Of a stretch of DNA of 64,000 nucleotides, positions 31,546 to 54,031 are shown one piece after another. The stretch comes from Thermoanaerobaculia bacterium. GTDB lineage: Bacteria > Acidobacteriota > Thermoanaerobaculia > Gp7-AA8. The position numbers and the translations under genes are program-made. The stretch's first letter is position 1. Each line of letters opens with the position of its first letter. Location of the stretch: contig JADGNY010000005.1 of NCBI GenBank assembly GCA_017883235.1, forward strand, positions 7,180 to 71,179. Direction: 5' to 3'. A model generated the notes under the pieces. That model worked only from the letters and a program-made list of their open reading frames with translations, was not told where the DNA came from and did no database searches.

Positions 31546-31709
31546 GCGGCTTCGCCGCGTTGTCTGCGCTATCGCGCGTTCTCTGCGCCTGCTTCGCGGC
31601 GCGTTGTTTGCGGCTACGGCCGCGTGGCCTGAAATCATCGCCGCCTCGTTGTTCATTGACCACGCGCCCGCAGGCGCAGACAACCGACAACGCGGCGAAG
31701 CCGCAGACA
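31546..31709. repeat. Hairpin REP element between the two ABC genes
   Basis: ctgcggcttcgccgcgttgtc ... gacaacgcggcgaagccgcag. Confidence 0.65.
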
Positions 31710-43353: not shown

Positions 43354-43415
43354 GTTGTCGGTTGTCGGTTGTCCGTCGTAGGTGAGGCGACAACCGACAA
43401 CCGACAACCGACAAC
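43354..43415. repeat. Hairpin of tandem GTTGTCG / CGACAAC heptamers
   Basis: gttgtcggttgtcggttgtc ... gacaaccgacaaccgacaaccgacaac. Confidence 0.75.
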
Positions 43416-44265: not shown

Positions 44266-45291
44266 TCAGGCATACGCTTCCGCGAACTCCAGCGCGTGAT
44301 AGGTGATGATCAGATCCGCCCCCGCGCGCTTGATCGACGTCAGGATCTCGTTCATCACCCGCGGACCGTCGATCCAGCCTCGCTCGGCCGCGGCCTTCAC
44401 CATCGAATACTCGCCGCTCACGTTGTACGCCGCCACCGGAAGGTCGAAGTTCTCGCGCGCGGCGCGGATCACGTCCAGGTAGGACAGCGCCGGCTTGACC
44501 ATGATCATGTCCGCCCCTTCCTCGACGTCGAGCTCCATCTCCCGGATGGCCTCACGGATATTGGCCGGATCCATCTGGTAGCTGCGGCGATCGCCGAATT
44601 GCGGAGCCGACTCGGCGGCTTCGCGGAACGGCCCGTAGAAGCCGGAGGCGTACTTGGCCGAGTAGGCCATGATCCCGACCTCGGTCAGCCCTGCGTCGTC
44701 GAGCGCGTCGCGGATCGCCCCGACGCGGCCGTCCATCATGTCGGACGGCGCCACGAAATCGGCGCCGGCGGCGGCGAAGGAGAGAGCCTGCTTCGCCAGC
44801 AGCGGAAGCGTCTGATCATTGTCGACATCCGCTACTCCGTTGCGCTCGACGATGACGCCGCAATGTCCGTGGTCGGTGTATTCGCAGAGGCAGACATCCG
44901 CCATCACCGCCATCTGTGGCACGGCGCGCTTGATGGCCTCGATGCCCTCCTGCACCGGCCCTGCCGGATCCCACGATGCCGATCCGATGGCGTCCTTGTA
45001 CTCGGGAAGCCCGAAGAGGAGGACCGCCCGGATGCCGAGGTCGTAGGCGCGGAGAGCCTCCTCGGCGGCCTCGCGGGCACGAAGCTGCCAGACGCCGGGC
45101 ATCGATCCAATCTCCACCTTCGGCCGCGCGTCCGGCACGACGAAGAGCGGATAGATGAGGTCCTCGGGGCGCACGACTGTCTCCCGCACCAGAGCCCGGA
45201 TCGATTCCGTGCGGCGCAGGCGCCGCGGCCGCCGGGCCAGGGTGTCGGTGATGGTGTCAGTCGGCTGGATCGACGTCGCTATCGTAGTCAT
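44266..45291 (-). CDS. hemB: Porphobilinogen synthase (delta-aminolevulinate dehydratase), Zn-type
   Basis: Start at [28 protein letters not shown], Zn site [14 protein letters not shown] and active-site [12 protein letters not shown]. Confidence 0.92.
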
Positions 45292-45463
45292 CGCTGTCTC
45301 CGTAGAAAAAGGCGCGGGCACACTCGCCGGAGCAGAATCGCCGCCCCGTGGCCCTGTAGACGCAGTCGGCGCAGAAGTGTTTCCCGCACGTGGGGCAATG
45401 TTCGAGGATCGCGCTCTCCTCAGGATCGCCACACCGGATGCACTTCTGCCCTTCGTCGGACAT
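45257..45463 (-). CDS. Small Cys-rich zinc-ribbon protein (68 aa)
   Basis: CIRCG...[12 protein letters not shown]...CSGEC, with an acidic tail. It overlaps the hemB start by 35 nt. Confidence 0.5.
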
Positions 45464-45534: not shown

Positions 45535-45612
45535 GGCGGTGTAGCTCAGATTGGTTAGAGCGGGCGTCTCATAAGCGCTAGGTCACTGGTTCGACTCCAG
45601 TCACCGCCACCA
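45535..45612 (+). tRNA. tRNA with CAT anticodon (elongator Met or lysidine-modified Ile2)
   Basis: Cloverleaf by hand: acceptor ggcggtg/caccgcc, D arm gctc..gagc, anticodon loop ctCATaa (CAT at 45570-45572), T arm actgg-ttcgact-ccagt, and an encoded CCA. Confidence 0.85.
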
Positions 45613-45723
45613 AAGGCCGCCTGGGCTAAAAGCGTACGCGCGGCTCGGTCGCCGCAGATCATGGTGTGAGGCTGCGTACCAAGCGCGGAACCTGCTTCTT
45701 GAACCTTCCTGAGTAAGGCCACT

Positions 45724-46131
45724 CTACTCACGCCTGAACTGGAGCGTCATGAACACCCCGCCGATCGCGGCCATCGAGATACCGGCGACGAGGTGGTCCC
45801 GGCTTACTGACGCCTTACCGGGCGGGGCGTCAACCATCAGCGTCAGCGCCACCCCAAGGAGAATTCCCCCGACCGTACCCACGAGGGAGTAGATCTTTCG
45901 CTTGCGGCGAAGGTAAACAACATCGGCGGCAAGATCGACGTGAACGGCCTCGACGGTTCTCAACCTCTGCCGCCTCGCGCAGCTGATGGATTCCAAGAGC
46001 AGGTCCTCAATGAACCGCTCAACGCGGATATGAAACCTGTCCAGCCCCGAACGCGTGAATGGCGACGGGTCAGTATCTTTAAGCAGGTTTCGTGCGGCTG
46101 CGATGATCGCGTAGTTCGTGTCTTCGGGCAT
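45724..46131 (-). CDS. Cassette gene 6: soluble N-domain plus 2 C-terminal TM helices (135 aa), unknown family
   Basis: ATG start 6 nt after the stop of gene 5. TM helices are IYSLVGTVGGILLGVALTLMV and LVAGISMAAIGGVFMTL. Confidence 0.65.
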   Translation of the reverse strand: MPEDTNYAIIAAARNLLKDTDPSPFTRSGLDRFHIRVERFIEDLLLESISCARRQRLRTVEAVHVDLAADVVYLRRKRKIYSLVGTVGGILLGVALTLMVDAPPGKASVSRDHLVAGISMAAIGGVFMTLQFRRE

Positions 46132-46137
46132 TTCGGC

Positions 46138-46488
46138 TTACTCCCTGCAGAGTTTGGATCGATTTATGACGTCGCGGTACGCTAGCTTCATTAGGTTCTT
46201 CAGTTCCGGAACGGAACCGGGTTGTGGACGTTGTCTGTACGTCTCGACGCCGTTCGTAATCGCTGATACACCCAGCGCGACGCCCGCCGCCACCACGCTC
46301 CCTATCACCTCTCGCTCCACGAGGGTAATCAAGACAACGCCAGCCGAAACGGCTCCGGCCATCATCGCGGCCACAACGACGTTGATCCCGAAAAGCCAGC
46401 GTCCAAAGCGCGATCGTTGAATAGCCGAAAACGCACGCGCCAAGCGATCGTGCAGGATGGCGTCCTTCGATTGCCGCTTACTGATCAT
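46138..46488 (-). CDS. Cassette gene 5: small 2-TM protein (116 aa), unknown family
   Basis: ATGA overlap with gene 4. Hydrophobic hairpin: WLFGINVVVAAMMAGAVSAGVVLITLV / VIGSVVAAGVALGVSAI. Confidence 0.65.
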   Translation of the reverse strand: MISKRQSKDAILHDRLARAFSAIQRSRFGRWLFGINVVVAAMMAGAVSAGVVLITLVEREVIGSVVAAGVALGVSAITNGVETYRQRPQPGSVPELKNLMKLAYRDVINRSKLCRE

Positions 46489-47327
46489 AGCCCGCTTCCC
46501 GCCTCGGTGTTCAGTTCTTTCAAACGCTGAGGCACTTCGGTCCCGAAACGAAAGTTCGCTCTGTTGTCGCCGGACCGATCGAGGATCTCACGCCAGAATC
46601 GCTCGAGGTCATGGGCGGCAGGCCGCTTGGTGGTACCTGGCGAGGTGGGGTCGGTTGCTAGAAGCATCGTCACGCTGGCACCATTTAAATGAAGCAAGGG
46701 TTCACTCGGCAATGCACGTGCGGCCTTAATCTCCTTCATTATCGACTGCTTCTCCAGCGACAGCTTGCCTCCAAGAAGCGAATCATTACAGTCTTCGAGC
46801 ATATCGCTCACAATTATGATTTCGACCGGACGGCTTGGCCGGGCGTCGATCGTCACCTCTTCTGCTTTCCGTAGCGCACCCGATATGCAGGTCAGCTTGC
46901 GCCCGATGCGGTTTCCGGCGGCGACTTGGTGGAGCGTCTTGGCGACTTCAACCTTCGATCGGGCCTTGAAAACGCTGAAATCAACGGAGTCGCTCGTCGT
47001 CAGCGTATCCGGAAGCGTCGCTGTGTAGATAGCCGGCGCACGCTCGACATCCTCGAGAATGGGGAAGACGATCAGCGTCGCTTTCGGCGGCATGATCTCT
47101 ACAATCCTCTGAACCTTCTCCTCAACGACCGCGTGTTCCCTTGCGCTGAGGCTATCCGTAACATCGGCGAAAATCACATACGTGCGAGGCAGCGTACGTG
47201 GATCGGGCGCGCGGTCTTTGGAGTTGATCGTGGTCGATCCGGTCCGCTCTCTTCCGGACGATTTCCCCGCGCACCCGCACACACCGAGCGCCGTTGCGGT
47301 CCCGAGGGCGACAATCCACCTGATCAA
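46485..47327 (-). CDS. Cassette gene 4: probable lipoprotein with a weak vWA/Rossmann-like signature (280 aa)
   Basis: TTG start with a TTGA overlap with gene 3. Signal/lipobox is ALGTATALGVCGCAG. It contains YVIFADVTDS and EIIIVSDMLED strands. Confidence 0.65.
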   Translation of the reverse strand: MIRWIVALGTATALGVCGCAGKSSGRERTGSTTINSKDRAPDPRTLPRTYVIFADVTDSLSAREHAVVEEKVQRIVEIMPPKATLIVFPILEDVERAPAIYTATLPDTLTTSDSVDFSVFKARSKVEVAKTLHQVAAGNRIGRKLTCISGALRKAEEVTIDARPSRPVEIIIVSDMLEDCNDSLLGGKLSLEKQSIMKEIKAARALPSEPLLHLNGASVTMLLATDPTSPGTTKRPAAHDLERFWREILDRSGDNRANFRFGTEVPQRLKELNTEAGSGL

Positions 47328-48610
47328 GAGCTGGCCGTACCTTCCGGCTCCGGAGTCACGGGTGTGTCAAACCTATGTGACGCAGTGCTTTCCTCGTTCG
47401 CCAAGCGTCGTGCAACAGCGTAGCGCTGCTGAGCGAAGGCCATCCACTGCTTCAAAACGAACTGCACGCGTTCGTGAAGGTGCCGCCCGCTGTGAATTGT
47501 CTCCGGCACAGCAAAGCCCTGCCGATACCCGTCCAAGTAAAGCGCGTACGCCGCCTCAGCCGCTTTGCTACTCGACTTGTCGGCTGCCCCGAAAGCGGCG
47601 GCGAGACGTTGTACGTCGGCCTCCGCGGTGCTCCCAATTTCCGCCGCGTCGTCGGATTCCTTCCGGAATCGGGTGCGGTCAGTCGTCAACGATGCGAGAC
47701 GTCGTGAATTCTGCAGCCGGCTCCACCCTGCCGAGGCGCAGATACCGCCAATCAGCGGCAACGTCAGGGTGAGCAAAACGAACGAGAGATTGGCTTGCTC
47801 TTGCATCGTTTTACGCTGCTCCTCGAGACCAGGAGGAATGACGCCGGCGGCACTCTGCTTCTGCATCTCCTGCAGGGTTCTGACTCCCGTTCGTAGCCGA
47901 GCGAGAAGGAACAGATTCCCGCCGACCATCAGTAAAACGGCCATCAATGCCACCGCGGCGACCACACGAACCCATCGGCTTTGGAGGTAGTGCGGCTTGA
48001 AGAAGAAGTCCGCGATAAACTTAAAGAACAGGGCGAGTGCGGCAATGCCGATCGCAAACGCAAGCGGCTCCCACATCGTTTGCCACTCGTCGCGAATAAC
48101 GGAAAGGTCCTCCAGCTTGTGATAGTTGGTTTTAATGCCGAGGCCGTCCGCGGCAAGGAGCGAGAGCGGAAGATCGGCGATCCAAAGGACCAGAGCTACG
48201 ATGCAGTAAAAGACTCCGAGGGGAAAAGAATAGCCCGTTGGATTCTTCAGACGGTCGGCCTCCACCTTGTCGTAGGCATCGTCGACATTCTTCGCGATCG
48301 TTTCCGCGCGAGTGCGACGCTCCGTCGCGATCTTCGACGTTGCCTCAGCCTTCGCGAGGTCGGTCGTGAGCGCATCAACATGCTCTTGTCGCCTTCGTTC
48401 CGCGTCGAGAGCGAATATCGATTGGGCCTCCGCGGAGAACAGACCGAGCCGTCCCGCGGTCCAACCGCGCCACCACTCGGGGTCGCTGTAGGTTGTGGGG
48501 ATCGGGATACCGCTGCTGTGGTCGGCACGGTCGTGGTTGTCGAGTTTGAGGCCCGGCCAATCCCGAAATGGCCGACCGTCGCTGCTCAATACGTCTTTTT
48601 CGTCGCTCAT
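47324..48610 (-). CDS. Cassette gene 3: coiled-coil plus 4-TM protein (428 aa), unknown family
   Basis: ATG start with GAAGGGA upstream. A charged helical N-region is followed by four TM helices (FPLGVFYCIVALVLWI..., LAFAIGIAALALFF..., VVAAVALMAVLLMVGG..., FVLLTLTLPLIGGI...). Confidence 0.7.
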   Translation of the reverse strand: MSDEKDVLSSDGRPFRDWPGLKLDNHDRADHSSGIPIPTTYSDPEWWRGWTAGRLGLFSAEAQSIFALDAERRRQEHVDALTTDLAKAEATSKIATERRTRAETIAKNVDDAYDKVEADRLKNPTGYSFPLGVFYCIVALVLWIADLPLSLLAADGLGIKTNYHKLEDLSVIRDEWQTMWEPLAFAIGIAALALFFKFIADFFFKPHYLQSRWVRVVAAVALMAVLLMVGGNLFLLARLRTGVRTLQEMQKQSAAGVIPPGLEEQRKTMQEQANLSFVLLTLTLPLIGGICASAGWSRLQNSRRLASLTTDRTRFRKESDDAAEIGSTAEADVQRLAAAFGAADKSSSKAAEAAYALYLDGYRQGFAVPETIHSGRHLHERVQFVLKQWMAFAQQRYAVARRLANEESTASHRFDTPVTPEPEGTASS

Positions 48611-48621
48611 CTAGAATCCCT

Positions 48622-49554
48622 TCACGCATCCGCCAACACTGTCGGCCCTGGCGGCGATGGCGCCTCGTGCGATACGGGAGCACCTGCCTCCGCAGCTATT
48701 TCGTCGAATGGCGCCCGCAACCGCGTCGCGGCTGCAATGACAGCGCGAATGCGCTGGATTAATTCTGTTTCTGCCTTTGACGTCAGTTCCTGGCTCGCAC
48801 GGTCTTTGGCTTCCGACTGGGCGATCGCACCCGCCAGATTCGCTCTCTGTGTCCGAATGTCGCGGAGAGCCGTCAACGACGCCACCGCCGCACTCTCGGT
48901 CAGTTCTCGCTCCAACTCACCAACCTCCGCTTGAATCCTGGCGCGTTCGACGCGCAGTTTTGCGATTTCGTCCACATGTTCACGAGCGATCTCGAGGTCA
49001 ATGACATCCCACTGTTCCGGATCGGGCGGCTCAACGGTCCGCCCGCGAGTCAAGTGCACCTTGCTCAGCACACGGATCAGCACGTCCCTGGCCCTTCCGA
49101 AAACGCCCGCGTGGCTCTCGATTGCCGCTGCAGATGCACCATCGGCTTTTCCTCTCCGGCGCTCGGCCTTTCGATCGCCGAGGCGGAGACCAAGGCGCTT
49201 TGCGCGCGCCACCTGCTCGATCCATGAGCGTTCGACTCGATAGCGTTCGATCAGAGCCGCAACAGCACGTTCGACGTCAACTGCGTTGTCCTCTGGAGGC
49301 TTCTGGATCTCGATAAGTCGAGCCTCGCGTTTCTGCAGCGTGTAAATCCAAAAGGCTGCGTCAGCATAAATGCCCCGGTAAACGAGGCCATACGCGAGCG
49401 CAAGAGAGCTCGCCATCATGAACAGTGTCCAACCTCCCCAGACAAACCGGTTCGGTTCGCTAGCGACAGCGGCAACGACCACGGCAACGGCGAGCGCGAT
49501 GGGCGGGATCGCAAAGTGCCATTGATTGCCGCGCGGTGAAGAACGTTCGGTCAT
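48622..49554 (-). CDS. Cassette gene 2: N-terminal 3-TM region plus long coiled-coil tail (310 aa), unknown family
   Basis: ATGA overlap with gene 1. IPPIALAVAVVVAAVA, WTLFMMASSLALAYGLV, then E/R/A-rich helices. Confidence 0.7.
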   Translation of the reverse strand: MTERSSPRGNQWHFAIPPIALAVAVVVAAVASEPNRFVWGGWTLFMMASSLALAYGLVYRGIYADAAFWIYTLQKREARLIEIQKPPEDNAVDVERAVAALIERYRVERSWIEQVARAKRLGLRLGDRKAERRRGKADGASAAAIESHAGVFGRARDVLIRVLSKVHLTRGRTVEPPDPEQWDVIDLEIAREHVDEIAKLRVERARIQAEVGELERELTESAAVASLTALRDIRTQRANLAGAIAQSEAKDRASQELTSKAETELIQRIRAVIAAATRLRAPFDEIAAEAGAPVSHEAPSPPGPTVLADA

Positions 49555-50732
49555 GGCGCTCCTCCACGGTCACGTAATCGCGGTTCTATCGACTTGATGG
49601 CGTACAGAACGAAGACGGCCGTGCTGAGCAGGGCGATTGCGCTGCCGACGAATGTATGTGCCAGTACCGGCAGCAGGTCCCCGATATCGTTTCCGGGTTT
49701 TGGCCCGGTTGTAACGAAGACAAGCGCCAAGCCACCGCAGAACAGGAAAGGCACTGCGGCGAGCAATTGAACGTACGACCGGCGACTCAACGAAGTCGCG
49801 CTCAGGCGGACTTTCTCGTGATCCGGCTCCTCCTTTTCGTCCCACTCAAAACTTCGGCGGAGCAACCAATCGACGAGAAGGGTCAACCCTGAAATGACGC
49901 CAAGGGTTCCGATTAGCACACCGGCGGCATAGACGTAGCGTCTGAGTGGAGTCGACGCAAGACTGTTCGTGAAGGAGTAGATATATGGAAGCAAATGACT
50001 CACGTCGTGAACGCTGCTGCTCTTTACAAGTAGCGTCCACACCGTTCCGGTCGCTGCGACGGAAGCATAGCCGAGCCACGCGAGGAACTTCGCTACGCGA
50101 TAGGTGACGAGGCTGTCGCCCAACGCCTCCACGCGTTTTGTCGATTGCTCGACGGCAACGCGTGCGTGCTCGGCTGCCGCTTCCAGCCGTTTGATGTGTT
50201 GCTGTCGCTGCGACTCGGCTTCCTTCCATTGCGCTGTTCGGGCATCTCGAACGCGAGTGGCTGTTTCCCGCAAGTCGACCAGCGCCCGCTCATGGTCTTT
50301 TCTGAGGTTCTCCTGCTCCTCGGCTATGCGACGCGCTTCTTCAACCCTCCTTGCACGCTCGATCTCGGCTCGGAGTCGAGTAATCCTTTCATCCCGATCC
50401 GCCAGATCTTCGAGGAGCTTCTTCTTCCTATCCCGTTGAGCCGCCATCCCGTCGCGAATCGCGGTACGTGCGTCAATATCCTCCTGAAGGGGCTGAAGGT
50501 TCTCTCGAAGAACGGCGCGTGTCGACTCGCCGGTTTCCCTCAGGTACGCGCGGTACTGGTCCGCCATCGATTGAATTGCGCCGATGAAAAGACCGGGATC
50601 GGCGTCGCAAAGCGCGAGAACCGTTGCGACATCGAAAAGATCGTCACGGCTCTCGAATGGAAAGTTATTGGCGTCTCCTCCGATCGATTCGTTCCGATCG
50701 AAGCTGTCGCCAGTGAGGCCACTCACGTTCAT
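49551..50732 (-). CDS. Cassette gene 1: long coiled-coil N-region plus 4 C-terminal TM helices (393 aa), unknown family
   Basis: ATG at 50730-50732 lies 7 nt after AAGGAAG. The track starts 2 codons earlier at GTG. It contains LLEDLADRDERITRLRAEIERARRVEEARRIAEEQENLRKDHERALVDLRE and then four hydrophobic helices. Confidence 0.7.
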   Translation of the reverse strand: MNVSGLTGDSFDRNESIGGDANNFPFESRDDLFDVATVLALCDADPGLFIGAIQSMADQYRAYLRETGESTRAVLRENLQPLQEDIDARTAIRDGMAAQRDRKKKLLEDLADRDERITRLRAEIERARRVEEARRIAEEQENLRKDHERALVDLRETATRVRDARTAQWKEAESQRQQHIKRLEAAAEHARVAVEQSTKRVEALGDSLVTYRVAKFLAWLGYASVAATGTVWTLLVKSSSVHDVSHLLPYIYSFTNSLASTPLRRYVYAAGVLIGTLGVISGLTLLVDWLLRRSFEWDEKEEPDHEKVRLSATSLSRRSYVQLLAAVPFLFCGGLALVFVTTGPKPGNDIGDLLPVLAHTFVGSAIALLSTAVFVLYAIKSIEPRLRDRGGAP

Positions 50733-51180
50733 TGCCACACTTCCTTTTCGTTGAGACTACGCTCTTCTCTCTAGGACACACAGGACACACCCACACGTAA
50801 GGAGTGATGGGCGTGCGACTTTCCTACCAGCCAATTGTGGAACATTTGTGATGCGAAGAGTCGAGCAACAAGCGGTAGGCCGAGGCCTAGTCGACCAGAA
50901 TAGTCACCGACCACCGACAGCGCTCAAGCTGCTCCTCTCCTCTTAAGGAGTGCCGCGAACGCACTTTTTCCTACCCGCTCGACAAAAATTTACTTATTTT
51001 GACAGCGGGCAGACGGCCGCCAGCGTCAGCGAGCTGGCCTTCAGAAAGGGCCGGAACGCTGCTGTGTCTTTCAACATGTCATCCGCTCAGGATTTGCGGC
51101 CCTCGACAACGCCCCGACACTTCGCCGCAAGCGCAGGACGATGTGCGCGGCTCCGGTTTCGTGCCTCAGGTCCGCTCAGT

Positions 51181-52203
51181 TCACGGCGTCCGGCACTTGG
51201 GGAGTTGCTTCGCGGCCCGCTCGATGTCTGCATCAACCAGACGCGGCTCCGTATCAGCCAGGACGCGGTAGCGATCGTATTCCTGTCCAGCCTTTGCTCT
51301 GGCCGTTTCGGCGGAGATCTGCCCGGCGTGATCCAGCAGCTCCCGTCCGGAGATTCTCAGGAACTCATCCAGCTTTTCGATCCATTGGCGCATGTTCATC
51401 GGCTTGCGGTCGAGGGCCTGGAGCTCGGCGAACTCGATGTAGAGACTCACGATCCGGTTGAGCGTTTGCAGCTCTTCTTCGCTGAGGTAGTTCTTGGCGA
51501 CCGAGACATCTTCGCGGCGAATGATCTTGCCGGGACGGATGGTCCTGAGCCCCATCAGCGGCTGGGTTGCGTCGGCGCGCTGGTGGATCACCTCGGCCGC
51601 CGTGTGGCCGTGCGTTGCCCAGTGCATCTTGTTCTGCACCGTGGCAAAGAACTGCTGCGTCATCTCCGTGTTGGGTGTGTAGTCGACGCTCGTCGCGTAG
51701 ATATCGAGCACCTTCTGGTAGAAACGCCGTTCCGAGGAGCGGATGTCGCGGATGCGCTCCAGCAACTCGTCGAAGTAGTCCGCGTAGCCCTTGCCCGGAG
51801 GGTTTTTGAGGCGATCGTCATCCATGGTGAAACCTTTCACCAGGTACTCGCTCAACCGCGCTGTGGCCCACTGGCGGAACTGCGTGCCGCGGTGGCTGCG
51901 CACGCGATAGCCGACGGCGAGGATGGCGGGGAGGCTGTAGTGCTCGACCTCACGAGCGACCTCGCGCGCGCCCTCCAAACGAACTATCCGGAATTTCCGG
52001 ATAGTTGCCTCCCGGCTCAACTCGCCCTCCTCGAAGATGTTCACCAAGTGCTCGTTGATCGTTCGCACATCCTTCTGGAAGAGGTCAGCCAGGAGCGCCT
52101 GCGTGAGCCAGATCGTCTCGTTCTCAAACCGGCATTGGATGCGCGTCCGCCCGTCCTCGGTCTGGTAGAGGATGATGCTGGATTGCGGCTGGCTGTCGGG
52201 CAT
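51181..52203 (-). CDS. rhuM: RhuM-family protein
   Basis: Start at MPDSQPQSSIILYQTEDGRTRIQCRFENETIWLTQALLADLF. ...GYRVRSHRGTQFRQWAT..L.EYLVKGF.MDD.RLK... is typical of RhuM. Confidence 0.8.
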   Translation of the reverse strand: MPDSQPQSSIILYQTEDGRTRIQCRFENETIWLTQALLADLFQKDVRTINEHLVNIFEEGELSREATIRKFRIVRLEGAREVAREVEHYSLPAILAVGYRVRSHRGTQFRQWATARLSEYLVKGFTMDDDRLKNPPGKGYADYFDELLERIRDIRSSERRFYQKVLDIYATSVDYTPNTEMTQQFFATVQNKMHWATHGHTAAEVIHQRADATQPLMGLRTIRPGKIIRREDVSVAKNYLSEEELQTLNRIVSLYIEFAELQALDRKPMNMRQWIEKLDEFLRISGRELLDHAGQISAETARAKAGQEYDRYRVLADTEPRLVDADIERAAKQLPKCRTP

Positions 52204-52321
52204 GCGTACTCCGAACGGGCAGCACGAGTTTACTGGCAGATCATCCAATCCAACGGCTGTAGAGCAACGGCGTGCGCCACGCCGAGAGGAGATGCTGGAG
52301 CCCCCTGTCCGTTGCCGCTCA

Positions 52322-52510
52322 TTTCGGCTACCGCTCGTAGAGCGGCCGGCCTAATCCTCCAGCGTCGGCATCGCCAGCAGCACCTCGCTCGCTCTCGGCC
52401 GGTCCTTCACTTCCTCAGAGACAGCCGAGAATGGTCATGAACGTCGACTTTCCGCTGCCGCTCGCTCCCATGATGGCGATGAACGGGCACGGCTCCACCG
52501 AGACGTTGAT
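52322..52510 (-). pseudogene. Internally deleted copy of the MacB-type ABC ATPase gene
   Basis: 52322-52416 matches 53264-53356 (gene 3' end plus downstream sequence). 52417-52510 matches 53856-53950 (Walker A region). About 0.5 kb of the middle is missing. Confidence 0.8.
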
Positions 52511-52637
52511 GGTCCCCAGTTCGACTCTGGGCACCGCCACCAACCTTCCTCTCCAGCCCGCGAAACGACGCGTGGAAGATGGAGCAGAAGAGGCGAGAAG
52601 CCTCTGTTTGACGCGCTCTCGCGCCTGATCATGGCAC

Positions 52638-53063
52638 TCAGTGGGGCAATGGCAGGTTCCAGAAGAACTGAGAGATTCGTACGAGAAGCGGGTCAGGCAC
52701 GGCAGCGCCAGCTTCGTTCAGCCGCTTCACTTCTTCGTTGATGCGAGCGAGCTCTTGCCTGTCAAGCCAGAAACCATGGCAACCGGGGCAGTAGTCAAGG
52801 ATGATCGTGGTGTCGATGTTGAAGTCGACTTTACGCATCTGGATATCGGCATCGCGCGGACAGTCAATTGGCCCGTATTCATCCTCGTGTTGAAATGAAT
52901 CGCCATCTACGGTCGAGAATTCGAGATCGCCAGGAGTGGGATCGGCGAGGCGGTTCAGTTGTCCATGTTCCAGGAACATCCCACCACAGAGCGGACAGGT
53001 TTGGACCGATGTCTGCCCGATCGATTTAGTTTCCAGGACTGCAGCATCACGCGGACAGTTCAT
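52638..53063 (-). CDS. Double zf-TFIIB-type zinc-finger protein
   Basis: Two modules: CPRDAAVLE...CPLCGGMFLEHGQL and CPRDADIQM...CPGCHGFWLDRQEL. Confidence 0.7.
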   Translation of the reverse strand: MNCPRDAAVLETKSIGQTSVQTCPLCGGMFLEHGQLNRLADPTPGDLEFSTVDGDSFQHEDEYGPIDCPRDADIQMRKVDFNIDTTIILDYCPGCHGFWLDRQELARINEEVKRLNEAGAAVPDPLLVRISQFFWNLPLPH

Positions 53064-53154
53064 ACGTCCTCCCGTCGGTTTGCTCGAAACGCATTATAGG
53101 CACGGGTTCCGCGGAGAGCGCGGAGGTTCTAAGGATGTGCCCTCTCCTCTCCGC

Positions 53155-53250
53155 GCCTCGGATGCGCTCCAGCAACTCGTCGAAGTAATCCAGTTGTCCC
53201 TTTCCCGGCGGGTTCTTGAGGCGCTCGTCGTCCATGGTGAAGCCCTTCAT
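53155..53250 (-). pseudogene. rhuM fragment
   Basis: MKGFTMDDERLKNPPGKGQLDYFDELLERIR aligns with VKGFTMDDDRLKNPPGKGYADYFDELLERIR of the full gene (nucleotides about 51740-51840). It has no flanking continuation. Confidence 0.75.
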
Positions 53251-53290
53251 CGCAGTTGACGCTTATTCGGCTACCGCTCGTAGAGCCCGC

Positions 53291-54031
53291 CTAATCCTCC
53301 AGCGTCGGCATCGCCATCAACACCTCGCTTGCGCGCGGTCGCTCCTTCACTTCCTCGTCCTTCCTGATCTTCCCATCACGAAAAACGATGACCCGTTTGG
53401 CGAATTGGGCGATGTCGGGCTCGTGGGTGACCAGGACGATCGTCAGGCCTTGTTCGTTCAGATGCTGGAAGACCTCCATGATCTCAACCGCCGTGCGGCT
53501 GTCGAGGTTTCCGGTTGGCTCGTCCGCGAGGAGGATGGAGGGACGGTTCACCAGCGCGCGGGCGATGGCGACGCGTTGCTGCTGGCCGCCGGAGAGCTGT
53601 GACGGAAAATGCCGGGAGCGTTCGGCGAGGCCGACCAGGGCCAGTGCTTCGGTGGCGCGCTTCGTCCGCTCCATCTTGTCGATCCTCGTATAGAGAGTCG
53701 GCAACTGCACGTTCTCGAGCGCGCTCGTGCGCGGCAGGAGATTGAATCCCTGGAAAACGAAGCCGAGTTTGCTGTTGCGGATGCCGGCCAGCTGGCGCTT
53801 ATCGAGGCTGGAGACGTCGATTCCCTCGAGCAGGTAACGTCCCGAGGTCGGACGGTCGAGACAGCCGAGAATGTTCATGAACGTCGACTTTCCGCTGCCG
53901 CTCGCTCCCATGATGGCGATGAACGCGCGCGGCTCCACCGAGACGTTGATGCCGCGGAGCGCGTGCAGGCGCGACTCGCCGAGCTGGTAATACTTGTGAA
54001 CCTCCTCGACTTGGATGATGGCCACGCTCAC
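53291..54031 (-). CDS. MacB/LolD-type ABC transporter ATP-binding protein
   Basis: GASGSGKST, LSGGQQQR and ILLADEPTGNLD. Confidence 0.9.
   Translation of the reverse strand: MSVAIIQVEEVHKYYQLGESRLHALRGINVSVEPRAFIAIMGASGSGKSTFMNILGCLDRPTSGRYLLEGIDVSSLDKRQLAGIRNSKLGFVFQGFNLLPRTSALENVQLPTLYTRIDKMERTKRATEALALVGLAERSRHFPSQLSGGQQQRVAIARALVNRPSILLADEPTGNLDSRTAVEIMEVFQHLNEQGLTIVLVTHEPDIAQFAKRVIVFRDGKIRKDEEVKERPRASEVLMAMPTLED

What the first reader, a model, noticed from the sequence alone, without database searches (positions are those of the whole stretch)
45724..50732. Six-gene, translationally coupled cassette of coiled-coil/TM proteins plus a lipoprotein in an AT-richer, tRNA-adjacent segment next to rhuM: candidate undescribed membrane-acting (defence-like) system
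Six same-strand ORFs look like one operon. They are joined by 4-nt start/stop overlaps (ATGA at 49551-49554 and 46485-46488, TTGA at 47324-47327) or by gaps of only 6-11 nt.

I cannot assign any of the six to a named family. Genes 1-3 (393, 310 and 428 aa) combine long E/R/A/Q-rich helical, coiled-coil-like stretches with 3-4 hydrophobic helices. Gene 4 is a probable lipoprotein (ALGVCGCAG). It has a weak vWA/Rossmann-like signature: a hydrophobic strand plus DVTDS, then later IIIVSDMLED. Genes 5 and 6 are small 2-TM proteins.

Spot GC counts on 60-nt lines are about 48-52% here, against about 65% in the tricorn gene. The cassette ends 112 bp from a tRNA gene. Upstream of it lie a 448-bp AT-richer spacer and a RhuM-family gene. 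That context is typical of mobile or defence islands. A multi-component membrane complex with a periplasmic lipoprotein sensor and small pore-like 2-TM effectors is one reading, but it is inference.
Basis: partly seen in the sequence, partly recalled or inferred. Interest (0 to 1): 0.8.

Follow-up and report, generated by a model that had tools for sequence, protein, structure and literature searches.

The report
Uncharacterised envelope-spanning vWA-lipoprotein membrane cassette
A tRNA-flanked 6.9-kb island carries an operon for an unnamed membrane complex: two large coiled-coil membrane proteins, a periplasmic vWA-fold lipoprotein and two small membrane proteins; the core trio recurs in soil Acidobacteriota and Bacteroidota, and close relatives hold very different versions in the same slot, as conflict or defence genes often do, but its function is untested.

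Summary
Six co-directional, translationally coupled ORFs lie at 45724-50738 (-).

The cassette is ancestrally five genes. Genes 1 and 2 are a fission of one ~700-aa protein (A).
- Core: A (6 TM, two cytoplasmic coiled coils), B (4 TM, invariant intramembrane Asp, cytoplasmic stalk) and C (lipoprotein).
- C has a confident AlphaFold model that matches only vWA domains and keeps a D-x-T-x-S...T...D MIDAS-like motif.
- D and E are lineage-specific 2-TM accessories. E has a weakly supported histone-fold-like head.

No Pfam, NCBIfam, PADLOC or PHROG family fits A, B, D or E. B-like proteins form about 514 clusters, and every locus inspected has the A-B-C order.

Evidence for mobility and diversification:
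- a tRNA-Met 3'-end repeat bounds the island;
- the closest cassette sits at a different locus;
- two genomes with 85-89% identical flanks hold trios only 25-32% identical in the same slot.

A conserved bipartite element precedes the operon.

Best reading (about 0.4): a new NTPase-free trans-envelope conflict or defence module. Function is inferred, not shown.

The parts
45535..45612 (+). tRNA-Met (CAT); left boundary and integration target of the island
   Evidence: ARAGORN; Rfam tRNA 66.9 bits. The same tRNA-Met locus carries the cassette in L023.
45724..46131 (-). Gene 6 = E (135 aa). N-terminal ~75-aa helical head with a histone-fold-like pattern, then a C-terminal 2-TM hairpin. Accessory component.
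   Evidence: ORF; TM helices at 82-100 and 114-132. Homologues in L002, L008, L011, L014 and L023. Weak hits in different members: TFIID_20kDa 0.038, DUF1931 0.041, CBFD_NFYB_HMF 0.11, LonB lid 0.039. hhalign against HMfB gives E 0.02 but probability 2%. No PDB hit.
46138..46488 (-). Gene 5 = D (116 aa). 2-TM hairpin with an invariant Glu-Arg at the turn and a C-terminal 'YR(D/E)A' helix. Accessory component.
   Evidence: ORF; hydropathy; 5-member alignment with invariant E58, R59, Y104 and R105.
46485..47327 (-). Gene 4 = C (280 aa, TTG start). Lipoprotein with a vWA-fold domain and a MIDAS-like D55-x-T57-x-S59 ... T146 ... D175 motif. Cys147 and Cys180 are invariant.
   Evidence: 23-sequence alignment with invariant lipobox Cys19 and motif residues. 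AlphaFold2 pLDDT 86.7, pTM 0.82. The 50 best Foldseek PDB matches listed are vWA domains or vWA-containing proteins, E about 1e-6, probability 1.0. Pfam VWA_2 reaches only E 0.085.
47324..48610 (-). Gene 3 = B (428 aa), the signature protein. Cytoplasmic N- and C-terminal helical stalk with conserved tip motifs (W..GW.DGR.G and Y..GY.RG..VPET), and 4 TM helices with invariant D146 (TM1), K197 and R240.
   Evidence: alignments A2 and A5. Profile search: 514 clusters at E<=1e-3 and 147 at <=1e-30. AlphaFold pLDDT 69 with long helices 60-122 and 262-343. No significant PDB fold match.
48622..49554 (-). Gene 2 = C-terminal half of A (310 aa). TM5-TM6, the 'LAYGxxYxG' motif and a ~230-aa cytoplasmic coiled coil.
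   Evidence: Collinear with residues ~400-715 of the fused homologues. It has its own Shine-Dalgarno sequence GGAGGAG 6 nt before the ATG, inside the end of g1.
49551..50732 (-). Gene 1 = N-terminal half of A (393 aa from the ATG at 50732). Conserved N-terminal head, ~150-aa coiled coil, TM1-TM4 and the 'IEPR' motif.
   Evidence: Coiled-coil noise hits to SMC, JetC and Rad50 arms over residues ~54-222.
50802..50828 (-). Proximal copy of the conserved bipartite upstream element GGTAGGRAA-N10-17-CACTC, 96 nt before the g1 ATG. Probable promoter or operator of the operon.
   Evidence: Two matches in the window against 0 in 100 shuffles. The same element sits 85-97 nt upstream of A in L002, L005 and L008, and also upstream of A in L015, L016 and L033.
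50948..50988 (-). Distal second copy of the same element, with the upstream T-run (TTTTTG-N8-GGTAGGAAA...CACTC).
51181..52248 (-). RhuM-family gene (PADLOC candidate PDC-S05). It lies inside the island but has host-like codon composition and is not linked to the cassette elsewhere.
   Evidence: Pfam E 5.4e-114 and PADLOC E 1e-143. GC3 0.82. Absent from all other loci.
52323..52511 (.). Remnants of a second copy of the neighbouring ABC ATPase gene (3' end plus Walker-A region, internally deleted). They abut the tRNA fragment.
   Evidence: Direct repeats D1, D3 and D8: 89-100% identical to 53266-53356 and 53858-53951.
52511..52543 (+). Diverged direct repeat of the tRNA-Met 3' end (T-arm plus acceptor plus CCA); right boundary of the 6.9-kb island. 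Its six differences form three fully compensatory T-stem pairs, so it derives from a different functional tRNA allele.
   Evidence: Repeat D5, 82%. The pattern gives 2 matches, and 0 of 100 shuffles reach that. Sequences read directly.

Best explanation
The cassette encodes a previously undescribed complex that spans the inner membrane and reaches into the periplasm. It is carried on mobile, exchangeable DNA and most likely acts in biological conflict, such as anti-phage or anti-invader abortive defence or exclusion.

Anatomy (shown):
- A, split here into g1 and g2, is a 6-TM inner-membrane protein with two long cytoplasmic coiled coils.
- B (g3) is a 4-TM protein. TM1 and TM4 continue into a cytoplasmic helical stalk capped by two conserved glycine/aromatic motifs. 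Its membrane core carries an invariant Asp (TM1), plus invariant Lys197 and Arg240 and near-invariant Asp201.
- C (g4) is a periplasmic lipoprotein with a vWA fold and an intact MIDAS-type metal/ligand site.
- D and E are small 2-TM accessories found only in the Thermoanaerobaculia-type cassettes.

Proposed mechanism (inferred):
1. C uses its MIDAS site to hold, or to monitor, an acidic ligand in the periplasm. The ligand could be an exposed loop of A or B, or a foreign or envelope component.
2. Disturbance of that contact during envelope breach is passed through the charged membrane core of B.
3. The output is either ion leakage (abortive, membrane-depolarising) or a conformational signal carried down the A and B stalks to a cytoplasmic target.

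No NTPase or nuclease is involved. The operon is driven from a conserved bipartite upstream element.
For: Operon and real genes:
- Overlaps and short gaps join the ORFs.
- Shine-Dalgarno sequences precede the starts.
- The gene order is conserved in every locus examined.

C is a vWA lipoprotein. Its motifs are retained in distant trios.

B invariants hold across 50 diverse members. The family has 514 clusters, with no Pfam domain on record for A, B or C in any locus.

Mobility and diversification:
- A tRNA 3' repeat bounds the island.
- The cassette has lower GC and GC3 than its surroundings.
- The closest cassette (L008; B 78% identical) is at an unrelated locus next to a PIN toxin-antitoxin pair.
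- Only cassette genes are shared between loci.
- L005 and L033 have flanks 85-89% identical at the protein level, but their A/B/C are 32/25/27% identical. DNA homology ends exactly at the flanking gene ends.

Neighbours, among 12 distinct contexts:
- RhuM/PDC-S05 in the window;
- MNT or HepT-MNT (L005, L020), PIN-TA (L008) and a Ppl-like gene (L015) immediately adjacent;
- an IS transposase further downstream on the L009 contig.

The conserved upstream element is retained even between the 25-32% identical cassettes.
Against: - There is no experimental evidence.
- No PADLOC model hits the six proteins, apart from coiled-coil noise on g1.
- No recognisable effector enzyme, NTPase or sensor domain typical of known defence systems is present.
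- Several loci (L018, L032, L033) have purely housekeeping neighbours.
- Within three pairs of relatives the chromosomal position is stable (L002/L016, L005/L033, window/L023), which also fits a vertically inherited accessory envelope function.
- The family was not found in IMG/VR (close-pattern scan only), PLSDB or INPHARED.
- Diversifying selection also acts on surface adhesins and recognition proteins.
- The model of B has only moderate confidence (pLDDT 69), and A, D and E were not modelled.
Confidence: 0.4

Rival explanations
1. The complex is an accessory envelope scaffold, adhesion or membrane-remodelling complex and not an immune system. The vWA lipoprotein would bind an extracellular or periplasmic matrix or cell-surface ligand, as integrins, CglB or the FtsZl1-associated vWA proteins do. 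The cytoplasmic coiled coils of A and B would tie it to intracellular structures. Allelic diversity would then reflect selection on surface recognition.
For: - vWA domains are classically adhesion and complex-assembly modules (one search matches include CMG2, vWF A3, integrin-like proteins and pilus adhesin SpaC).
- In L014 the cassette lies 34 nt downstream of a Tubulin_2 (FtsZl1) plus vWA gene pair. That kind of operon has been predicted to remodel membranes (PMC2875224).
- A variant trio in L009 is followed by TPR, TM/coiled-coil and flotillin-like genes.
- The position is stable in three pairs of relatives.
- Several loci have housekeeping neighbours.
- No enzymatic effector is present.
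Against: - The distribution is very sporadic: 6 hits in 185,579 species genomes for the close family.
- The cassette inserts at unrelated loci.
- Neighbours include tRNA-island features, toxin-antitoxin pairs and candidate defence genes.
- The invariant buried Asp, Lys and Arg residues in B suggest ion or signal transduction more than passive scaffolding.
- FtsZl1 linkage is seen in only one context.
Confidence: 0.28
2. The complex is a gated cation or metal channel, or an envelope-stress device. B, with A, would form an ion-conducting inner-membrane channel. The vWA lipoprotein would serve as a periplasmic metal-binding or gating subunit, and the cytoplasmic stalks would act as a regulatory funnel, loosely like CorA or Psp-type responses.
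For: - B has invariant intramembrane D146 and K197, near-invariant D201, and a Pro/Gly-rich TM4 (LPxIGGICxSxG).
- C has an intact MIDAS-like metal site with an extra acidic SDMLEDC loop and an invariant Cys pair.
- A long helix leads into TM1.
- A conserved dedicated upstream element suggests membership of a regulon, such as a stress regulon.
Against: - There is no similarity to any transporter, CorA, MgtE, Psp or MotA/ExbB family in Pfam, NCBIfam or by PDB fold search.
- Replacement by 25-32% identical versions in the same slot of close relatives is not expected for a simple transporter.
- Island location and sporadic occurrence also argue against it.
Confidence: 0.15
3. The cassette is cargo that serves the mobile element itself. 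It could be an entry or superinfection-exclusion module, or a maintenance module, of a degraded integrative element at tRNA-Met. This would be a special case of conflict function acting against incoming DNA or related elements and not against phages in general.
For: - The island is bounded by the tRNA and a foreign-type tRNA 3' fragment.
- Islands sit in tandem at the same tRNA in L023.
- Exclusion systems are typically membrane proteins or lipoproteins without enzymatic domains (general knowledge).
- E has a histone-fold-like head at the membrane.
Against: - No integrase, relaxase, or conjugation or phage gene lies in the island or in any other locus.
- Most cassettes are not at tRNAs.
- There are no hits on plasmids or phages.
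Confidence: 0.1

Closest known systems
Zorya type I/II (ZorAB membrane sensor with a long cytoplasmic coiled-coil tail)
   Same: Both are inner-membrane complexes with a conserved intramembrane Asp, a periplasm-facing partner and very long cytoplasmic coiled coils. A is about 700 aa, like ZorA. Both are candidate envelope-breach sensors carried in variable regions.
   Different: - A and B do not hit the PADLOC ZorA/ZorB models or Pfam MotA_ExbB/OmpA.
- The periplasmic partner is a vWA lipoprotein, not a MotB-like peptidoglycan-binding protein with a TM plug.
- There are no ZorC/D-type effectors.
- The TM topology differs: 6 TM and 4 TM, with both termini in the cytoplasm.
vWA-MoxR 'ternary' conflict systems (Kaur, Burroughs, Iyer, Aravind 2020; PMC7159879)
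   Same: Both are three-gene mobile systems centred on a vWA domain, with coiled-coil or scaffold components, and are proposed conflict systems.
   Different: - Those systems are defined by a MoxR AAA+ ATPase and a cytoplasmic vWA protein fused to effector domains, plus VMAP, iSTAND or FtsH.
- Here there is no ATPase at all. The vWA protein is a secreted lipoprotein without fused effectors.
TolQ-coupled vWA 'force transducers' (PMC12204202)
   Same: A periplasmic vWA domain is genetically coupled to an inner-membrane complex that carries a conserved Asp. The function of those systems is also unknown.
   Different: Those vWA proteins are TM-anchored (SHLS motif or an Asp-bearing trans-pore helix) and sit next to tolQ/tolR homologues. 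Here the anchor is a lipobox, and no MotA/ExbB/TolQ-like protein is detectable.
FtsZl1-vWA membrane operons (Makarova and Koonin 2010; PMC2875224)
   Same: Both have a vWA protein with an intact MIDAS motif plus lineage-specific uncharacterised TM proteins. In one locus (L014) such a pair lies directly upstream of the cassette.
   Different: No FtsZ-like GTPase is present in the window or in 11 of the 12 contexts. The vWA protein of those operons passes Pfam VWA_2 (E 1e-9), whereas C does not.
RexAB / Kiwa-type membrane-acting abortive or membrane-sensing defence
   Same: Both are small operons in which a polytopic (4-TM) membrane protein is the presumed sensor or ion-leak effector, with no NTPase.
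   Different: There is no sequence or fold relationship. Those systems lack a lipoprotein or vWA component and the large double coiled-coil protein.
Prokaryotic 'transmembrane' histone-fold proteins (Schwab et al. 2024; PMC11390915)
   Same: E has an N-terminal domain whose helix-loop-helix-loop-helix pattern aligns in register with HMfB and is followed by TM helices. That paper notes a minor class of histone-fold proteins that gained TM domains and lost DNA-binding residues.
   Different: Support here is weak: Pfam E 0.04-0.11, each hit in a single member; hhalign E 0.02 but probability 2%; no PDB hit. No structure model was made, and membership was not established.

Membership tests
von Willebrand factor A (vWA) domain (gene 4 / C) | Rossmann-like alpha/beta fold of the vWA type | tested here: met
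   AlphaFold2 with a 23-sequence alignment gave pLDDT 86.7 and pTM 0.82. The 50 best Foldseek PDB hits listed are vWA domains or vWA-containing proteins, E about 7e-7 to 2e-5, probability 1.0, TM-score up to 0.61 normalised to the target.
von Willebrand factor A (vWA) domain (gene 4 / C) | MIDAS motif DxSxS ... T ... D on the beta1 loop, a helix N-terminus and the beta4 loop | tested here: met
   Invariant D55-x-T57-x-S59 follows strand 49-55, invariant T146 precedes helix 148-161, and invariant D175 follows strand 168-174. This is the variant DxTxS. Metal binding itself cannot be tested here.
von Willebrand factor A (vWA) domain (gene 4 / C) | Sequence match to a Pfam vWA model above the gathering score | tested here: not met
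   VWA_2 gives E 0.085 and 13.9 bits against a cut-off of 27, and only over residues 122-176. A PDB profile search found nothing. The assignment rests on structure, so C is a highly divergent vWA.
Bacterial lipoprotein (gene 4 / C) | N-terminal signal peptide ending in a lipobox with an invariant Cys | tested here: met
   Cys19 is invariant in 23 homologues, preceded by a hydrophobic h-region and small residues such as L-A-A-C and V-F-G-C. Distant trios also have signal-plus-Cys starts. SignalP/LipoP was not available.
vWA-MoxR ternary conflict systems | Adjacent MoxR-type AAA+ ATPase | tested here: not met
   No AAA+ or P-loop domain occurs in any of the six proteins, nor in the A/B/C genes of the other loci, which have no Pfam hits on record.
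Zorya | ZorA (MotA/ExbB-like) and ZorB (MotB-like, peptidoglycan-binding) proteins | tested here: not met
   PADLOC gives no ZorA or ZorB hit at E<=1 for any protein. Pfam gives no MotA_ExbB or OmpA hit.
   There are no such hits in Pfam, NCBIfam or PADLOC at E<=1. Foldseek on B gives only generic coiled coils at E>=0.005.
Histone fold (gene 6 / E N-terminal domain) | Helix-strand-helix histone-fold pattern detectable by profile or structure | tested here: inconclusive
   Sub-threshold hits to three histone-fold Pfam families, each in a different member (E 0.038-0.11). hhalign against HMfB aligns in the expected register, E 0.02 but probability 2%. No PDB hit.
tRNA-integrated genomic island | tRNA gene at one end and a direct repeat of its 3' part at the other | tested here: met
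   45581-45613 matches 52511-52543, 27 of 33 nt, with an identical acceptor/CCA end. None of 100 shuffles reaches two matches.
tRNA-integrated genomic island | Integrase or recombinase gene inside the island | tested here: not met
   Only the six cassette ORFs, RhuM and ABC-gene remnants lie between the repeats. The island is degraded or mobilised in trans.
tRNA-integrated genomic island | Composition deviating from the host | tested here: met
   The cassette is 59.4% GC, below the minimum (61.1%) of 188 control windows. Its GC3 is 0.63-0.75 against 0.80-0.84. RhuM itself is host-like at 0.82.
Known anti-phage defence systems (PADLOC-DB 2.0) | HMM match of the component proteins to a catalogued system | tested here: not met
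   g2 to g6 give 0 hits. g1 gives only coiled-coil noise (LeoA, JetC and DndD arms, E>=1.5e-4). Only the neighbour RhuM matches, to PDC-S05.

The most novel reading that the evidence does not exclude
A-B-C would be a new class of NTPase-free, trans-envelope immune sensor/effector found in Acidobacteriota and Bacteroidota. A periplasmic vWA lipoprotein would report invader-induced envelope events to a charged-core membrane protein with chemoreceptor-like cytoplasmic stalks. The system would be maintained as deeply divergent, exchangeable 'alleles' at fixed chromosomal hotspots under a dedicated regulon. In one lineage it would have recruited a membrane-anchored histone-fold protein.
Probability: 0.3. 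Interest if true: 0.85.

Novelty: categorically new. Interest (0 to 1): 0.66.

Why it matters
If the inference holds, this is a conserved multi-protein membrane machine of about 500 sequence clusters in at least two phyla of mostly uncultured soil bacteria. No database names any of its parts, and its organisation matches no catalogued defence, transport, secretion or motility system. That organisation is a vWA lipoprotein, two polytopic coiled-coil proteins and no enzyme.

Close relatives keep 25-32% identical versions in the same slot. This gives a directly testable prediction of strong diversifying or frequency-dependent selection.

The system would extend the emerging theme of envelope-sensing immunity (Zorya, Kiwa) to a completely different protein set. 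It would also give vWA/MIDAS domains a sensing role in the bacterial periplasm.

Even if it proves to be an adhesion or remodelling device, it defines new protein families with clear signature residues for mutagenesis.

Tried and rejected
- Pfam, NCBIfam, PADLOC and PHROG scans of all six proteins gave only coiled-coil and TM noise.
- The word-indexed homologue search with g1 was swamped by coiled-coil candidates and found only itself. A-family sequences had to be taken from loci.
- Foldseek of the B model against the PDB gave nothing significant.
- PDB profile searches for C and E gave nothing.
- hhalign of A against B, D against E and A against D gave no convincing paralogy.
- The search for related loci with the 50-sequence alignment failed because no stretch was conserved enough. 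With A2 it mostly re-found known loci in metagenomes and found none in IMG/VR.
- tblastn of B against PLSDB plasmids and INPHARED phages gave no match.
- The sigma-70 promoter and intrinsic terminator scan was not above shuffles. Rfam found only the tRNA.
- Literature searches for a described system with this architecture found none.
- Rejected: 'frameshift pseudogene' for the g1/g2 split. A strong Shine-Dalgarno sequence and an ATGA overlap sit at a cytoplasmic loop, and an independent contig shows the same split.
- Rejected: a functional RhuM linkage, because it is not seen in any other locus.
- Rejected: reading the tRNA fragment as a simple decayed duplicate, because its six changes are three compensatory stem pairs.

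Full report
OBSERVATION

The six minus-strand ORFs exist at the stated coordinates. An independent gene call on a Logan contig gives the same six products. The junctions are 4-nt start/stop overlaps (49551-49554, 47324-47327, 46485-46488) or gaps of 11 and 6 nt. Shine-Dalgarno-like sequences precede the starts. One of them, GGAGGAG, lies 6 nt before the g2 ATG, inside the end of g1. tRNA-Met(CAT) lies 111 nt beyond the last stop codon. A RhuM-family gene (Pfam E 5e-114; PADLOC PDC-S05) lies upstream.

The compositional claim is right in direction but overstated. The cassette is 59.4% GC, against 63.4 +/- 1.2% (minimum 61.1%) for 188 equal-length windows elsewhere in the window. GC3 is 0.63-0.75, against 0.80-0.84 in neighbouring housekeeping genes. 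Only 14% of 60-nt lines are at or below 52%.

WHAT THE PROTEINS ARE

None of the six proteins reaches any Pfam, NCBIfam, PADLOC or PHROG family. The only hits are coiled-coil noise (SMC, JetC, Rad50 arms) and TM noise.

Gene 4 (C)
- It has only 23 close homologue clusters among 5.8 billion proteins.
- Their alignment shows an invariant lipobox Cys19. It also shows invariant D55-x-T57-x-S59, T146 and D175, an SDMLEDC loop, and an invariant Cys147/Cys180 pair.
- AlphaFold2 on that alignment is confident (pLDDT 86.7, pTM 0.82).
- The 50 best PDB matches listed by Foldseek are all vWA domains or vWA-containing proteins: TFIIH p44, vWF A3, CMG2, Sec23, ArnB, factor B.
- The three motif elements sit on the beta1 loop, a helix N-terminus and the beta4 loop, as in a MIDAS site.
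Sequence models alone do not show it: VWA_2 gives E 0.085, and a PDB profile search finds nothing.

Gene 3 (B)
- It has 4 TM helices and cytoplasmic N- and C-terminal regions of about 130 aa each.
- The AlphaFold model (pLDDT 69) shows a long helix (60-122) that leads into TM1 after two short breaks, and TM4 continuing to residue 343. Together these form a cytoplasmic stalk.
- Foldseek finds only generic coiled coils and chemoreceptor-like hairpins, none significant.
- Across 50 diverse relatives the invariant residues are G49, D146 (inside TM1, motif ADxPLSL), K197, R240 and G365. D201, P148, P285, Y358 and G361 are at least 90% conserved.
- Two glycine/aromatic motifs, W..GW.DGR.G and Y..GY.RG..VPET, would lie at the membrane-distal tip of the stalk.

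Genes 1 and 2 (A)
- They are the two halves of one protein. In every other complete locus a single 642-797-aa gene is collinear with g1 followed by g2.
- The split falls in a cytoplasmic loop just after the conserved IEPR motif and has its own ribosome-binding site. I read it as a functional fission and not as decay.
- A has an N-terminal head, a coiled coil of about 150 aa, TM1-4, IEPR, TM5-6, a LAYGxxYxG motif and a C-terminal coiled coil of about 230 aa.
- Conservation is confined to the membrane-proximal parts. The coiled coils vary freely.

Genes 5 and 6 (D, E)
- Both are 2-TM hairpin proteins. D has an invariant Glu-Arg at the hairpin turn.
- The N-terminal 75 residues of E follow a histone-fold-like pattern. 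Different members give sub-threshold hits to TFIID_20kDa, DUF1931 and CBFD_NFYB_HMF (E 0.04-0.11).
- hhalign aligns E with HMfB in the expected register, at E 0.02 but probability only 2%. There is no PDB hit.
- This remains a lead only. Schwab et al. 2024 mention a minor class of TM-bearing histone-fold proteins.

THE SYSTEM AND ITS DISTRIBUTION

In all loci recovered the order is A-B-C. D and E follow only in the Thermoanaerobaculia-type cassettes: the window, L002, L008, L011, L014 and L023. They are absent from L005, L015, L018, L020, L032 and L033. L009 and L022 carry other genes downstream of C. The core is therefore a trio.

A scan of one genome per species (185,579 species), using the two most conserved C peptides, found 6 loci. 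All are Acidobacteriota/Thermoanaerobaculia MAGs.

A profile of B searched against 1.84 billion representatives found 514 clusters at E<=1e-3, 316 at <=1e-10 and 147 at <=1e-30. Matches are mostly full length.
- The few named members are from Thermoanaerobaculia, Blastocatellia, Bacteroidia and Saprospiraceae MAGs.
- All members that carry a source name are 'hypothetical', apart from two evidently spurious names.
- Distant trios keep the signal/lipobox, D-x-[TS]-x-[ST], [ST]C[IV]L and SDM[IL]E.C motifs in C.
- No relatives were found in IMG/VR (close patterns only), PLSDB or INPHARED.

MOBILITY AND DIVERSIFICATION

1. The last 33 nt of tRNA-Met recur 6.9 kb downstream, at 52511-52543. None of 100 shuffles gives two matches. 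The six differences are three fully compensatory T-stem pairs and the acceptor/CCA end is identical. The fragment therefore comes from a different functional tRNA allele, as expected for an att site left by an integrating element. The island (45613-52543) holds the cassette, RhuM and remnants of a second copy of the adjacent ABC ATPase gene. It holds no integrase.
2. In L023 (hemB 82.5% identical) the cassette (B 70%, C 65%, D 52%, E 59%) lies at the same tRNA-Met locus. It sits behind another islet that is bounded by a 60-nt tRNA repeat.
3. The closest cassette (L008; B 78%) is at an unrelated locus between ABC transporter genes and a PIN toxin-antitoxin pair. In an all-against-all ORF comparison, only cassette genes are shared among loci.
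4. L005 and L033 share flanking genes at 85-89% protein identity and 84% DNA identity: ABC-F, peptidase S66, a sortilin/BNR protein and KAS III. The A, B and C proteins between those flanks are only 32, 25 and 27% identical. DNA homology stops exactly at the ends of the flanking genes. This is either replacement by a distant allele or extreme divergence at a fixed slot. Either way it is the signature of genes under diversifying or frequency-dependent selection.

Among 12 distinct contexts, the neighbours include:
- RhuM/PDC-S05 in the window;
- MNT or HepT-MNT (L005, L020) and PIN-TA (L008);
- a Ppl-like gene (L015);
- an IS transposase further downstream (L009);
- in one case an FtsZl1-vWA pair (L014).
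L018, L032 and L033 have only housekeeping neighbours.

A CONSERVED CIS ELEMENT

A bipartite motif, GGTAGGRAA-N10-17-CACTC, occurs twice in the spacer upstream of g1. The copies are at 50802-50828 and 50948-50975, that is 96 and 243 nt before the ATG. No match is expected by chance.

In the 20-kb loci it typically occurs exactly once, on the coding strand just upstream of A. This holds for L002, L005, L008, L015, L016 and L033, and therefore for both of the 25-32% identical cassettes.

It also precedes a secreted MBL-fold gene next to the trio in L015, and an unassigned region in L023. It is probably a promoter or operator of a specific regulon. The sigma-70 scan was uninformative.

MECHANISM

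Shown:
- an operon for an inner-membrane complex with large cytoplasmic coiled-coil stalks;
- a charged, invariant membrane core in B;
- a periplasmic vWA lipoprotein with an intact MIDAS-type site;
- no enzymatic or NTPase domain;
- mobile, exchangeable genetic behaviour.

Inferred: C binds or monitors an acidic ligand in the periplasm. The ligand could be a loop of A or B, or a foreign or envelope component. Perturbation of that contact is transmitted through B and A, and causes either ion leakage or a cytoplasmic signal. I give the conflict/defence reading about 0.4.

Rivals:
- an accessory adhesion, scaffold or membrane-remodelling complex (0.28; supported by vWA biology, the FtsZl1 and flotillin neighbours, and positional stability in three pairs of relatives);
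- a gated ion or metal channel, or envelope-stress device (0.15);
- an element-serving exclusion module (0.1).

COMPARISON WITH KNOWN SYSTEMS

The cassette resembles Zorya in concept: an envelope-facing partner, an intramembrane Asp and a long cytoplasmic coiled coil. It resembles vWA-MoxR ternary systems in having three genes centred on vWA. It resembles TolQ-coupled vWA force transducers and FtsZl1-vWA operons.

It fails the defining features of each. It has no MotA/ExbB-like or MotB-like protein, no MoxR ATPase, no TolQ homologue and no FtsZ-like GTPase.

I therefore class it as lying outside every known kind of system. Two caveats apply. Function is untested, and newer defence catalogues than PADLOC 2.0 (2023) could not be searched except through the literature, which gave nothing.

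VERDICT

This is a real and well-delimited finding of more than routine interest. The core is an undescribed A-B-C trio that includes a vWA lipoprotein. It sits in a tRNA island, and there is direct evidence of cassette exchange between close relatives.

Its defence interpretation is plausible but unproven. Several details needed correction: the gene count, the size of the GC contrast, the role of the small proteins and the relevance of RhuM.

Noticed in passing
window 52323-52511 vs 53266-53951; 51749-51839 vs 53159-53249: The stretch 'RhuM - 21-nt linker - ABC ATPase gene' occurs twice. One copy has a full RhuM and an internally deleted ABC remnant. The other has a ~200-nt RhuM fragment (53047-53250) and the intact ABC gene (53291-54031). 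Repeat identities are 86-100%. This suggests tandem units of [tRNA 3' end - cargo - RhuM - ABC] created by successive integration or duplication at tRNA-Met.
   Followed up: partly
window 52638-53063 (-): A 141-aa double zinc-ribbon protein with low GC3 (0.61) lies between the tRNA fragment and the RhuM fragment. It looks like cargo of a second, older islet. It was not searched against family libraries.
   Followed up: no
window 43354-43373 / 43388-43415; also 131-153 and 31677-31692: Arrays of the heptamer GTTGTCG form a perfect inverted pair in an intergenic region and recur at two other places (8 matches against 0.02 expected). This looks like a REP-like or terminator-like intergenic repeat family of this genome.
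   Followed up: partly
L015 11114-11142 and L023 6266-6293: The bipartite element found upstream of the cassette (GGTAGGRAA-N10-17-CACTC) also precedes other regions. In L015 it precedes a signal-peptide MBL-fold protein (a segment similar to part of the LmuA and Avs1a models, E 4e-7) followed by a Trypsin_2-like peptidase, immediately downstream of the trio. In L023 it precedes an unassigned region next to hemB. It may define a regulon.
   Followed up: partly
L023 3329-3388, 3676-4647, 4699-4775: In a related soil contig the same tRNA-Met is followed by a 323-aa esterase-like gene and a 60-nt (93% identical) repeat of the tRNA 3' end, and only then by E-D-C-B. The locus is therefore a hotspot with tandem islets.
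   Followed up: partly
L014 1858-6588: A Tubulin_2 (FtsZl1-type, E 6e-24) gene and a signal-peptide VWA_2 protein (E 1e-9) end 34 nt before gene A of the cassette. They may be co-transcribed with it. This was seen in only one context.
   Followed up: partly
L009 3181-8888: A divergent trio (B 28% identical) is followed by a secreted TPR protein, a multi-TM/coiled-coil protein, a weak flotillin-like coiled-coil protein and an IS (DDE_Tnp_1) transposase. These could be alternative accessory modules in place of D and E.
   Followed up: no
window 45257-45463 (-): A small Cys-rich zinc-ribbon ORF (68 aa) lies between hemB and tRNA-Met. It is conserved at the same position in L023 (49% identity), so it is probably a real small gene.
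   Followed up: partly
L016 10534-11502: The region where D and E should lie is replaced by T-rich low-complexity sequence, and B and C show frameshift-like breaks. This is probably long-read assembly error or decay in that MAG. That locus was not used for inference.
   Followed up: no
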